Shown here: in pieces, positions 5,927 to 7,298 of the stretch | Layout: every line of letters begins with the position of its first letter | Numbering within the stretch: the first letter of the stretch is position 1 | Origin: a virus | Taxonomy: Duplodnaviria; Heunggongvirae; Uroviricota; Caudoviricetes | Strand: one strand, 5' to 3' | Length of the DNA stretch: 15,032 nucleotides | IMG/VR virus record: IMGVR_UViG_2529293240_000016 | Position numbers and translations under genes: made by a program | The notes under the pieces: model-generated | What the model saw: only the letters and a program-made list of their open reading frames with translations | Database searches by the model: none | What the model was told of the DNA's origin: nothing

Positions 5927-6140
5927 ACTGAGCGGATCGGCATATTTTACCCGAACTGAATCATGATTATTCTCGCCCGTGGTGCCAGGACGCTGGGGCC
6001 ACTTTCCCGCCTGTTAATGTGCTCGCCAATATTCATTACCAGGCGGGAAAACGATCGGTGCGATTACTGATTTCCTTATGAAAAACGGTTGAGTGTTTGC
6101 CGCGTCCTGGAGTTCCTTACTTAACCCCAGGACTTTTTTT

Positions 6141-7298
6141 ATGCAGAGAATAATCGAATTACGCCAGCAGAAAACCGCCATTAAAAATCAGATGCGCGAC
6201 ATGCTGGAGAACGCTGAAAAAGAAAACCGCAGTCTTAACGATGCTGAGGGCGCAAAATTTGACGAATTACGCGCTAAAGCTGAATCCCTCGATAAAGACA
6301 TTTCCCGCCTTGAAGCCATTGCAGACGAAGAGCGCAGCAAGCCAGGTAAAAGCAGCCAGACCACTGACCCCGCAGAACTACGCAACTACATTCTGACCGG
6401 TGAAACCCGCGCATTAAGTACAGGCGTTCCCGCTGATGGTGGTTATACCGTTATCCCTGAACTGAACACCGAAATCATGCGAATGCTGGCGGATGAATCC
6501 ACCATGCGCCGCATCTGTACCGTGAAGAAAATCAGCAGCAACGAGTTTAAGCAGCTTGTTTCCGCTGGCGGTGCGACCGTTAACCACGGTGAAGAGGGTA
6601 AGGCACGCGAACAGACCAGCACCCCGCAGATTAACGAGGTGAGCATTAAGCTGTATCCGGTCTATGCGTACCCGCGCACCACACAGGAAATCGTGGATTT
6701 TTCCGATGTGGACATCCTTTCATGGCTGACGGGTGAGATTGGCGACACCTTCACGGAAACCGAAGAAAGCGATCTGGTTGTGGGCGACGGTGACAAAAAA
6801 GCAAAAGGTTTTTTATCCGTACCCCGTGCAGAGAAGAACGACAAAGAGCGTGATTTTGGTACGTTGCAGGTAATTAAACCTTCCGAATCTCTGGCGTGGA
6901 CATCTGCGGACCCGCTGATCGACCAGAAATTTGCATTACGTAAAAAATACCGCAAAAACGCGGTCTGGGTGGTTAACTCCACGACGGCGGCAAAACTTCA
7001 GAAGGTGAAGAACGCGAACGGTGATTATATCTGGCGCAACCGTTTACAGGCGGGTGATCCTGATACGTTGCTGGGCCTTCCGGTCGAATATCTGGAGTTT
7101 ATGCCTGATAACGTTATTGCCCTGGGTGACTTCAAACGCGGTTACTACATTGTTGATCACGAAACAGGTGTTCGCACCAGACCGGACAACCTGACAGAAC
7201 CAGGATTCATCAAAATTTTCACGCAAAAATATTTAGGCGGTGGCGTGGTGGATTCGAACGCGATCAAGATTCTGGAACTGCCGGAAGACGACGATTAA
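6141..7298 (+). CDS. Major capsid protein, HK97 family, with N-terminal scaffolding-like coiled-coil domain
   Basis: About 385 aa; charged coiled-coil N-terminus followed by an HK97-fold-like body. Start is ambiguous: ATG 6141 (no clear SD) or GTG 6093 as in the ORF track. Confidence 0.85.
   Translation: MQRIIELRQQKTAIKNQMRDMLENAEKENRSLNDAEGAKFDELRAKAESLDKDISRLEAIADEERSKPGKSSQTTDPAELRNYILTGETRALSTGVPADGGYTVIPELNTEIMRMLADESTMRRICTVKKISSNEFKQLVSAGGATVNHGEEGKAREQTSTPQINEVSIKLYPVYAYPRTTQEIVDFSDVDILSWLTGEIGDTFTETEESDLVVGDGDKKAKGFLSVPRAEKNDKERDFGTLQVIKPSESLAWTSADPLIDQKFALRKKYRKNAVWVVNSTTAAKLQKVKNANGDYIWRNRLQAGDPDTLLGLPVEYLEFMPDNVIALGDFKRGYYIVDHETGVRTRPDNLTEPGFIKIFTQKYLGGGVVDSNAIKILELPEDDD

What the first reader, a model, noticed from the sequence alone, without database searches (positions are those of the whole stretch)
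6003..6143. Structured leader in front of the capsid gene, including a hairpin plus T7 abutting the start codon
An 11-bp inverted repeat TTTCCCGCCTG / CAGGCGGGAAA (6003-6013 and 6040-6050) is followed by a hairpin GTCCTGG...CCAGGAC (6104-6133) and T7 ending one base before ATG 6141. No Shine-Dalgarno precedes either candidate start. A terminator-like element directly in front of the most highly expressed structural gene suggests read-through or antitermination control, or unconventional translation initiation.
Basis: seen in the sequence. Interest (0 to 1): 0.4.

Follow-up and report, generated by a model that had tools for sequence, protein, structure and literature searches.

The report
Structured leader RNA before satellite capsid gene
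The hairpins in front of the capsid gene of this phage satellite belong to a conserved, folded 5' leader RNA, not in any RNA-family library searched, that probably limits how much capsid is made by stopping transcription early and hiding the ribosome landing site.

Summary
The window is an EcCIEDL933-like capsid-forming PICI (phage satellite), and 6003-6143 lies in the 5' leader of its capsid/packaging operon.

- **Promoter (predicted).** About 215 related loci share a sigma-70-type promoter: -35 at 5946-5951, -10 at 5968-5973, with a start near 5979.
- **Leader fold.** P1 is 5979-6002. P2b is 6053-6072. P3 is 6104-6133, followed by U7 and ATG 6141.
- **Start codon.** ATG 6141 is the start. 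GTG 6093 falls out of frame in natural T8 variants.
- **Comparative support.** P1 and P2 show compensatory changes. The P3 stem is entirely different in other lineages but keeps its place next to the start codon.
- **Alternative pairing.** The 5' arm of P3 (6102-6110) is perfectly complementary to the core of P1 (5985-5993). This complementarity co-varies across three sequence classes. It becomes the most stable fold in the short interval before the 3' arm of P3 is transcribed.
- **U-tract.** It occurs only in the E. coli-type leaders. Nearly all leaders lack a Shine-Dalgarno sequence.

Best reading: a terminator/antiterminator-style leader that also occludes the start region. What triggers the switch is unknown. 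No Rfam match was found, and the cf-PICI papers checked say nothing about it. No transcription start, termination or translation data were available.

The parts
5860..5885 (+). Upstream intrinsic terminator-like hairpin (AGCCGGAGCAATCCGGCT followed by T-rich tail). It closes the preceding accessory-gene unit and insulates the capsid promoter.
   Evidence: Terminator scan. The mosaic breakpoint in E. coli genomes falls just after it, at about 5855-5888.
5890..5926 (+). Upstream element: TGTAAAT motif (5891-5897) plus TTGT(TC) direct repeats at about 10-bp spacing (5890, 5901, 5911, 5921). Probably a protein-binding array at about -90 to -55 of the promoter.
   Evidence: TGTAAAT lies 53-55 bp upstream of the -35 hexamer in 118 of 119 distinct sequences. 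A 15-nt exact second copy lies at 13419-13433 near the island's right end. The binding protein is inferred, not shown.
5946..5951 (+). Predicted -35 hexamer TTTACC of the capsid-operon promoter.
   Evidence: TTT(A/T)C is almost invariant at this position in 89 distinct upstream sequences aligned on P1, across a variable 16-nt spacer.
5968..5973 (+). Predicted -10 hexamer TATTCT. The transcription start is inferred at about 5979-5981.
   Evidence: T, A and the last T of TATnTT are invariant in 89/89 sequences and the third base is T in 84/89. The start site is inferred from the spacing only.
5979..6002 (+). P1: 5'-terminal hairpin GUGGU-G-CCAG-GACG-CUGG-G-GCCAC. Its core, 5985-5993 (CCAGGACGC), is the proposed antiterminator partner.
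   Evidence: -15.6 kcal/mol. In the related leader type, 3 pairs show compensatory changes and 99.3% of cells are paired.
6003..6050 (+).
   Evidence: -22.6 kcal/mol. It is the strongest inverted repeat in the window. A hairpin starts within a few nt of P1 in 103 of 110 distinct leaders, with 29 different 5'-arm sequences. Compensatory and G.U changes occur within one subtype.
6053..6072 (+). P2b: small weak hairpin, specific to this leader type.
   Evidence: -5.6 kcal/mol. Not conserved in the sister type A'.
6102..6110 (+). Region 3: GCGUCCUGG. It pairs either with 5985-5993 (long-range helix, 9 bp) or, for 6104-6110, with 6127-6133 (P3).
   Evidence: Perfect 9-nt complement. Cognate duplexes are stronger than non-cognate ones across three sequence classes. 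The long-range helix is the minimum-energy fold when the transcript ends at 6110-6122.
6104..6133 (+). P3: terminator-like hairpin next to the start codon. Its 3' arm carries the only SD-like motif, AGGA 6129-6132.
   Evidence: -12.7 kcal/mol. Four of the six single-change natural variants keep or strengthen the pairing. One variant scores as an 11-pair terminator. AGGA noted.
6134..6140 (+). U7 tract (T7). Together with P3 it has the anatomy of an intrinsic terminator. It could also serve as a U-rich spacer before the AUG.
   Evidence: T7 in 54 and T8 in 15 related loci, never shorter. Absent in the other leader types.
6141..7298 (+). Major capsid protein gene (HK97-type), starting at ATG 6141.
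   Evidence: Pfam Phage_capsid, E = 7e-61. PGAP uses the same ATG in two genomes. Frame argument.
7308..7339 (+). Hairpin GGGGC-loop-GCCCC with U-rich tail just after the capsid stop codon. Probably a partial terminator or 3' stabiliser that sets the capsid-to-downstream gene ratio.
   Evidence: Terminator scan. Present after the capsid stop in 10 of the 12 leaders inspected; L097 has a different hairpin with a U-run and L185 has none.

Best explanation
The finding is the 3' two-thirds of a conserved, cis-acting 5' leader RNA of about 160 nt, belonging to the capsid/packaging operon of a capsid-forming phage-inducible chromosomal island (cf-PICI).

**Steps**
1. A sigma-70-type promoter (-35 at 5946-5951, -10 at 5968-5973) starts the RNA at about 5979. 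This is inferred from conservation.
2. The RNA folds into P1 (5979-6002), P2 (6003-6050), P2b and P3 (6104-6133). The folds are computed, and P1 and P2 are supported by covariation.
3. P3 is the negative element. In this E. coli-type leader it is followed by U7 and so has the anatomy of an intrinsic terminator placed immediately before the AUG. It also buries the only SD-like bases (AGGA 6129-6132).
4. The 5' arm of P3 can instead pair with the core of P1 (5985-5993 with 6102-6110). This long-range helix excludes both P1 and P3, so it would act as an antiterminator and anti-sequestor.
5. The long-range helix is the most stable fold only during the short interval after region 3 is transcribed and before the 3' arm of P3 appears. 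The output is therefore probably set during transcription, by RNA polymerase speed or pausing or by a factor that weakens P1 or holds the long-range helix.

**Status.** The trigger is unknown. No termination, read-through or translation has been measured.
For: - **Element identity.** Pfam hits for capsid, protease, portal, head completion, connector, HNH and both terminase subunits. The window is 96.6% identical over 5496-12758 to the island beside phoQ in EDL933, described as EcCIEDL933.
- **Promoter.** In 89 distinct upstream sequences, the T, A and final T of TATnTT are invariant, the third T is present in 84/89, and TTT(A/T)C is nearly invariant, with a sequence-variable 16-nt spacer. This places the start at the first bases of P1.
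- **P1.** Nine pairs, three with compensatory changes, 99.3% of cells paired.
- **P2.** A hairpin directly after P1 in 103 of 110 distinct leaders, with 29 different arm sequences. UA/AU, GC/AU and CG/AU swaps plus many G.U pairs within one subtype.
- **P3.** The stem is replaced wholesale between lineages (GUCCUGG/CCAGGAC, GGUUUC/GAAACC, CUGCAUG/CAUGCAG) but always ends a few nt from the start codon.
- **Long-range helix, common leader type.** All 400 cells paired over 8 pairs, with one compensatory UA to GC change and two G.U changes inside the otherwise unconstrained P1 loop.
- **Long-range helix, truncated transcripts.** RNAalifold predicts a 13-pair version when sequences are cut before the 3' arm of P3.
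- **Co-variation across classes.** Cognate duplexes between the P1 region and the 5' arm of P3 beat non-cognate ones in three sequence classes. Each is stronger than at least 95.8% of shuffles (0-42 of 1000 shuffles as strong).
- **Co-transcriptional series in the window.** P1 is the minimum-energy fold up to 6100, the long-range helix from 6110 to 6122, and P1+P3 from 6126 on. Four of six other lineages tested show the same clear transient, and a fifth (L209) shows it at a single step.
- **Terminator anatomy.**. The U-run is never shorter than 7 in 69 loci.
Against: - The full-length P1+P3 state is 13.5 kcal/mol more stable than the long-range state in this window, and 6-15 kcal/mol more stable in most other types. 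Without a helper factor or kinetic trapping, the 'on' state may rarely form.
- During the transient window the energy gaps are only about 1-3 kcal/mol.
- Compensatory support for the long-range helix within one type rests on very few independent events.
- The U-tract exists only in types A and A', so termination is a lineage-specific addition at best.
- AT-rich relatives have the same promoter but no P1-P3 at all. The leader is therefore dispensable for capsid expression.
- The scan tool did not call the window's own hairpin a terminator.
- No leader peptide, ligand pocket or protein site was identified.
- The transcription start is predicted, not mapped.
Confidence: 0.5

Rival explanations
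1. Constitutive structural leader with no switch. P1 is a 5' hairpin that protects the mRNA. P2 and P3 lock upstream RNA into compact helices so that the A-rich start region stays open for Shine-Dalgarno-independent initiation. The U7 run is a ribosomal protein S1-binding, U-rich spacer rather than a terminator tail.
For: No SD in 156 of 159 distinct leaders. The P1+P2+P3 fold is by far the most stable full-length state. Most lineages have P3 without any U-tract. The capsid is the protein needed in greatest amount, so a strong default 'off' looks costly.
Against: It does not explain why the 5' arm of P3 co-varies with the P1 core in three sequence classes. It does not explain why the P1 loop is so conserved, or why an SD (AGGAG or AGGA) lies inside the 3' arm of P3 in types D and A. 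A perfect GC-rich stem followed by 7-8 U is the canonical terminator signature.
Confidence: 0.2
2. Processive antitermination. RNA polymerase starting at this promoter is modified so that it reads through P3-U7 and the hairpin after the capsid gene. The modifier would be either the island's AlpA-family protein, in the manner of Pseudomonas AlpA or lambda Q, or the nascent P1-P2 RNA itself, in the manner of HK022 put RNA.
For: Pseudomonas AlpA acts at promoters followed by an intrinsic terminator immediately upstream of the first gene, the same layout as here. Related islands encode a PF05930 AlpA protein, which is required for induction, and overexpressing it drives the island's reproduction. 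A second terminator-like hairpin after the capsid gene is present in 10 of 12 leaders inspected. The promoter spacer carries conserved CATG(T)A just upstream of the -10. Two adjacent hairpins sit at the 5' end of the RNA.
Against: No sequence match between the island's AlpA and any solved AlpA antiterminator chain. No -10-like pause element in the first transcribed bases, by inspection of P1. The Pseudomonas binding motif GGGACG-N5-GGTA is not seen here. P2 is not conserved in sequence, unlike a polymerase-binding RNA. This model does not need, and does not explain, the P1/P3 complementarity. The put comparison was not run.
Confidence: 0.15
3. DNA-level sites. The near-palindrome at 5979-6002 is an operator overlapping the transcription start, and 6102-6110 is a second, inverted copy. 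Both would be bound by a repressor, with no role for RNA structure.
For: The P1 DNA is an imperfect palindrome placed exactly at the predicted start, and an inverted partial copy lies about 115 bp downstream. P1 is very strongly conserved in sequence in the common leader type.
Against: G.U-type changes, which keep RNA pairing but break DNA symmetry, occur in P1, P2, P3 and the long-range helix. P1 has asymmetric bulges. The distance between the two copies varies with leader length, which ranges from 120 to 170 nt. The stems change wholesale while the hairpin geometry is kept.
Confidence: 0.05
4. The capsid protein starts at GTG 6093, so the hairpin and T-run are coding sequence.
For: An open frame runs from GTG 6093 into the capsid ORF in this window.
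Against: 15 of 69 related loci have T8 instead of T7, which puts GTG 6093 out of frame. Type A and A' leaders differ by indels that are not multiples of three. All homologues share the ATG and the following residues, M-x-[KR]-[IL]-[IL]-E-L. PGAP annotates the ATG.
Confidence: 0.02

Closest known systems
Classical terminator/antiterminator attenuators (trp, pyrBI and S10-operon leaders of E. coli; many riboswitch expression platforms)
   Same: Three mutually exclusive helices (1:2, 2:3, 3:4), with the last being a GC-rich hairpin plus U-run just before the first gene. The outcome is plausibly decided during transcription. As in the S10 leader, the same hairpin could affect both termination and translation.
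   Different: No conserved leader peptide, ligand pocket or known effector protein. The U-run exists only in one sub-lineage. The antiterminator is a long-range helix that encloses a variable hairpin (P2). No sequence or Rfam relationship.
Late or lysis operon leaders read by loaded antiterminators: lambda PR'-tR' (6S RNA; StxS in Shiga-toxin phages) and the Pseudomonas aeruginosa AlpA-controlled alpB leader
   Same: A promoter of a structural or lytic operon, then a short leader, then an intrinsic terminator immediately upstream of the first gene. The satellites encode an AlpA-family protein essential for induction.
   Different: No Q- or AlpA-binding element and no sigma-dependent pause signal recognised. 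Capsids are reported to form without a helper phage. Homology of the island's AlpA to the Pseudomonas antiterminator was not demonstrated.
Translation-inhibiting leader hairpins opened by an alternative structure or a protein (phage Mu mom/Com; lambda cIII alternative folds). From general knowledge.
   Same: A hairpin beside or over the ribosome-binding region, with a competing upstream pairing. In type D relatives the 3' arm contains AGGAG, and here it contains AGGA.
   Different: Most relatives have no SD at all to sequester. No RNA-binding activator was identified.
Satellite phage P4 immunity leader (CI RNA with seqA/seqB/seqC). From general knowledge.
   Same: A phage satellite whose leader carries three mutually complementary short elements that govern premature termination.
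   Different: P4 acts through a processed trans-acting RNA and controls early genes, not the capsid operon. No sequence similarity was tested or expected.

Membership tests
Capsid-forming PICI (EcCIEDL933 type) | Own capsid, prohead protease, portal, head-tail connectors, HNH, TerS and TerL genes in one module, with no tail or lysis genes | tested here: met
   Pfam hits for all of these. ORF list. Gene order is identical to the annotated islands.
Capsid-forming PICI (EcCIEDL933 type) | Near-identity to the prototype island of E. coli EDL933, including int and alpA | tested here: met
   96.6% identity over window 5496-12758 to the island beside phoQ in EDL933. int and alpA lie just left of the window. 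This copy carries an IS1 insertion and a terL frameshift.
Intrinsic (Rho-independent) terminator | GC-rich stem-loop followed directly by a U-tract, in the sense orientation within a transcription unit | tested here: met
   Stem 6104-6133 at -12.7 kcal/mol, then U7 at 6134-6140, downstream of the predicted promoter. The L018 variant is called by the scan; the window's own copy is not, because of the internal mismatch.
Intrinsic (Rho-independent) terminator | RNA 3' ends or polymerase release at the U-tract | not testable with these tools
   Needs Term-seq or in vitro transcription.
Transcription attenuator with antiterminator | An alternative helix that uses the 5' arm of the terminator and excludes it | tested here: met
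   5985-5993 pairs with 6102-6110 (9 bp). Co-varies across classes. It is the transient minimum-energy fold.
Transcription attenuator with antiterminator | An identified sensor: leader peptide, protein, tRNA or ligand | tested here: not met
   The upstream ATG is not conserved. The P2 sequence is not conserved. No Rfam match.
Transcription attenuator with antiterminator | Terminator U-tract conserved across the family | tested here: not met
   Present only in leader types A and A'.
Q/AlpA-type processive antitermination | Factor-binding element between -35 and -10, and a promoter-proximal pause signal | tested here: inconclusive
   Conserved CATG(T)A lies in the spacer. It is unlike the Pseudomonas motif, and no -10-like sequence is seen in P1.
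Q/AlpA-type processive antitermination | The island's AlpA is homologous to a proven antiterminator | tested here: not met
   PF05930 member. The only solved relative found is 8c3t, 'AlpA family phage regulatory protein'. No match to the antitermination-complex chains at E up to 10.
HK022 put antiterminator RNA | Two specific stem-loops just after the promoter that bind RNA polymerase | not tested
   Two adjacent hairpins exist, but no comparison with put sequences was run. The resemblance is from memory only.
SD-sequestering translational leader | Shine-Dalgarno sequence or start codon inside a helix | tested here: inconclusive
   AGGA sits in the 3' arm here, and AGGAG in three type D loci. 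The majority type has no SD.
Any Rfam family | Covariance-model match | tested here: not met
   No relevant match at E up to 1 in the window or in eight related loci.

The most novel reading that the evidence does not exclude
The leader is a previously undescribed riboregulator specific to capsid-forming satellites. It would be a kinetically poised three-helix switch gating capsid production at both transcription and translation. It would be flipped by an island-encoded or host factor: AlpA-modified polymerase, an RNA chaperone such as the ProQ/FinO-like protein encoded next to it in some islands, or polymerase pausing. It could be the control point that lets these satellites make tail-less capsids without a helper phage. 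In E. coli the terminated 160-nt product might additionally act as a small RNA.
Probability: 0.2. Interest if true: 0.7.

Novelty: new member of a known kind. Interest (0 to 1): 0.5.

Why it matters
Capsid-forming PICIs are a recently recognised and widespread class of phage satellites that build their own heads and borrow tails from phages. How they switch on their packaging operon has not been described in the papers I could search. This analysis gives three concrete, testable pieces: a conserved promoter with a phased upstream repeat array, a conserved structured leader, and a specific pair of competing helices in front of the capsid gene. If the switch is real, it is a handle for understanding and for engineering when these satellites make capsids, including the reported helper-independent production. 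If it is not, the region is still a well-defined promoter and leader annotation that current genome annotations lack.

Tried and rejected
- **Rfam.** Searched at permissive threshold on the window and on eight related loci. Only spurious microRNA hits.
- **Bona fide phages.** No match for the window's leader. The common leader type matched only three records: one 16.5-kb satellite-sized 'induced prophage', plus two unexamined records at about 76% identity.
- **GTG 6093 as start.** Rejected because of the T7/T8 polymorphism.
- **Leader peptide.** An ATG overlapping the -10 region gives a 10-codon ORF ending inside P1 in some relatives. The ATG is absent in many others and lies upstream of the predicted start. 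A 4-codon ORF at 6078-6092 is absent in type A'.
- **Helper-phage Q or N antitermination.** Set aside because capsids are reported without a helper. No boxB-like hairpin was seen by eye.
- **Whole-leader MAFFT plus RNAalifold.** Recovered only P1, because P2 is too variable to align. I used anchored mini-alignments and per-sequence folds instead. No covariance model was built.
- **Second copy of the upstream repeat array near the island end.** An exact-match search found one only in the E. coli type, with control background of 11-14 nt.
- **Transcript maps in the literature.** Searches for this island in EHEC found that datasets exist but gave no statement about this locus.
- **PDB search linking the island's AlpA to the Pseudomonas antiterminator.** Negative.
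Full report
**What the window is.** The ORFs and Pfam hits show an HK97-type head and packaging module: capsid 6141-7298, prohead protease, portal, head completion protein, connector, HNH, small and large terminase. It is preceded by a primase gene and small accessory genes, and followed by phoQ. The window is 96.6% identical over 5496-12758 to the island beside phoQ in E. coli EDL933. That 15.4-kb element is described as EcCIEDL933, the prototype capsid-forming PICI. This copy is interrupted by IS1 in the primase gene and has a frameshifted terL. Its leader is identical to that of a Shigella flexneri locus.

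**Checking the observation.**
- The 11-bp inverted repeat extends to 17-nt arms and is the strongest inverted repeat in the 15-kb window.
- The second hairpin extends by three pairs beyond an A.C mismatch.
- The T7 run touches the ATG directly.
- The region folds better than shuffles, z = -2.7.
- No usable Shine-Dalgarno sequence precedes the ATG. The best anti-SD duplex is -4.0 kcal/mol, and it comes from AGGA 6129-6132 inside the hairpin. Eight of the twelve other start sites tested in the island reach -6 to -12; the remaining four are weak too.

**Start codon.** PGAP annotates the ATG in two genomes. All homologues align from that ATG. Among 69 closely related loci, 54 have T7 and 15 have T8, so GTG 6093 is out of frame in a fifth of them. 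The hairpin is therefore non-coding.

**Related sequences.** Capsid-based searches of genomes, viral contigs and metagenomes gave about 215 loci with 159 distinct upstream regions. They fall into these types:
- **A:** this window, from E. coli and Shigella.
- **A':** a diverged sister of A.
- **B and C:** the majority, found in Citrobacter, Erwinia, Rosenbergiella and many metagenomes.
- **D:** a few loci with different stem sequences.
- **AT-rich types:** short, unstructured leaders.

In E. coli genomes the similarity often begins at about 5855-5888, so the leader travels with the capsid gene beneath different accessory genes.

**Promoter.** I aligned 89 distinct upstream sequences on the first base of P1.
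- The T, A and last T of a TATnTT hexamer are invariant, its third base is T in 84 of 89, and TTT(A/T)C is almost invariant 16 nt further up. The spacer sequence varies freely.
- These are the positions a sigma-70 promoter needs.
- In the window they are TTTACC 5946-5951 and TATTCT 5968-5973, which puts the start at about 5979-5981, the first bases of P1.
- The tool's stricter consensus scan did not list it.
- A TGTAAAT motif lies 53-55 bp upstream of the -35 in 118 of 119 distinct sequences. It is followed by TTGT repeats at about 10-bp spacing (5890-5926).
- A 15-nt exact copy of that array lies at 13419-13433 near the right end of the island.
- This suggests one DNA-binding protein acting at both places. 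An excisionase-like or AlpA protein is a guess, not a result.

**The RNA.** From 5979 the predicted fold is:

| Helix | Coordinates | Energy (kcal/mol) |
|---|---|---|
| P1 | 5979-6002 | -15.6 |
| P2 | 6003-6050 | -22.6 |
| P2b | 6053-6072 | -5.6 |
| P3 | 6104-6133 | -12.7 |

P3 is followed by U7 and the AUG.

**Comparative support.**
- **P1.** In 50 distinct B/C sequences, three of nine pairs show compensatory changes and 99.3% of cells are paired.
- **P2.** A hairpin follows P1 in 103 of 110 distinct leaders, with 29 different arm sequences. Within one subtype there are UA/AU, GC/AU and CG/AU swaps and many G.U pairs.
- **P3.** The stem is GUCCUGG/CCAGGAC in A, GGUUUC/GAAACC in B and C, and CUGCAUG/CAUGCAG in D. 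It always ends a few nucleotides before the start codon.
- **RNA versus DNA.** G.U changes and asymmetric bulges point to selection on RNA rather than on a DNA palindrome.

**The competing helix.** GCGUCCUGG (6102-6110) is the 5' arm of P3 plus two more bases. It is the exact complement of CCAGGACGC (5985-5993) in P1.
- The equivalent pairing in type B (GACGUGAG with UUCACGUC) is kept in all 400 cells of the alignment. It shows one compensatory UA to GC change and two changes to G.U that fall in the P1 loop.
- When B-type sequences are cut before the 3' arm of P3, RNAalifold predicts a 13-pair long-range helix instead of P1.
- Across classes A, B and D, cognate duplexes score -16 to -24 kcal/mol, stronger than cross-class ones (-4 to -18). 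Each cognate duplex beats at least 95.8% of shuffles.
- In the window, the minimum-energy fold is P1 for transcripts ending at 6100, the long-range helix for ends at 6110-6122, and P1+P3 from 6126 onward. Four of six other lineages show the same clear transient, and a fifth shows it at a single step.
- The full-length long-range state is 13.5 kcal/mol less stable than P1+P3 here. In type A' it is the minimum-energy fold.

**Interpretation.** The anatomy is that of a terminator/antiterminator leader: P1 (1:2), the long-range helix (2:3) and P3 (3:4). In the E. coli types P3 is followed by a U-run that is never shorter than seven. A natural variant of the stem scores as an 11-pair terminator. 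I therefore think premature termination just before the AUG is likely in this lineage.

The U-run is missing in most relatives. The older and more general role of P3 is more likely at the ribosome-binding step. It sits where an SD duplex would sit, it contains AGGAG in type D and AGGA here, and nearly all leaders lack an SD.

The trigger for switching is not identified. There is no conserved leader peptide, no conserved pocket in P2, and no Rfam relative. A helper-phage antiterminator is unlikely, because these islands are reported to make tail-less capsids without any helper. A processive antitermination route through the island's AlpA remains possible. The Pseudomonas AlpA system has the same layout of promoter, leader and terminator before the first gene, and the islands encode a PF05930 protein needed for induction. 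I could not show homology to the solved antiterminator.

**What is shown and what is inferred.**
- **Shown by computation:** the sequence features, their conservation, the covariation counts and the energy series.
- **Inferred:** the transcription start, termination at U7, the functional direction of P3 (negative), and the existence of a switch in vivo.

The AT-rich relatives, which keep the promoter but lack P1-P3, show that the leader is an added control layer, not a requirement for capsid expression.

**Novelty.** The cf-PICI papers I could search do not mention a promoter, terminator or leader at this position. The window's own leader has no match among deposited phage genomes; the common leader type matched three records, one of which is a satellite-sized 'induced prophage' and two of which I did not examine. 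It is best filed as a new member of the known class of alternative-structure leaders.

Noticed in passing
window 2832-3529, 1918-4443 and 10819-12461: IS1 (insA/insB ORFs on the minus strand) splits the primase gene, and terL is broken by a frameshift into two overlapping ORFs. This copy of the island is probably defective.
   Followed up: partly
window 5497-5514 and 5860-5877: The same terminator hairpin, AGCCGGAGCAATCCGGCT, occurs twice, after two successive small accessory genes.
   Followed up: no
window 7308-7339; also L004-L007, L061, L073, L108, L173, L209: A GGGGC-loop-GCCCC hairpin with a U-rich tail directly after the capsid stop codon is present in 10 of 12 leaders inspected, with different loop sequences. 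It is probably a partial terminator or 3' stabiliser that sets the ratio of capsid to protease and portal.
   Followed up: partly
window 5890-5926 and 13409-13435: TTGT direct repeats at about 10-bp spacing lie upstream of the capsid promoter. A 15-nt exact copy (TTGTTCCACGTTGTT) lies about 140 bp from the phoQ-side end of the island. The same second copy is at +7234 in L309. This suggests one DNA-binding protein, possibly the excisionase-like AlpA, acting at both sites. No such copy was found by exact match in other leader types.
   Followed up: partly
window 4506-4620: A cluster of inverted and direct repeats (GGTAGATAG, TACCCACTATCTACCC) lies just downstream of the primase gene. It may be the replication origin.
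   Followed up: no
window 13520-13552: Short tandem GACTTGA-like repeats at the junction between the island and phoQ, perhaps part of the attachment site.
   Followed up: no
window 10192-10478: A 287-bp non-coding gap between HNH and the small terminase gene, where a cos site would be expected in HK97-like packaging modules. Not examined.
   Followed up: no
window 5313-5474; L002 6724-6996; L073 3191-3721: The gene just upstream of the leader module varies between islands: a truncated PerC-family gene here, full-length PerC in EDL933, and a ProQ/FinO-family RNA chaperone gene in another E. coli island. Whether any of them acts on the leader is unknown.
   Followed up: partly
L097, L185, L186 (capsid-upstream regions): These relatives start the capsid gene with TTG and have a clear AGGAG inside the 3' arm of the start-proximal hairpin. 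They are the clearest case of SD sequestration in the family.
   Followed up: partly
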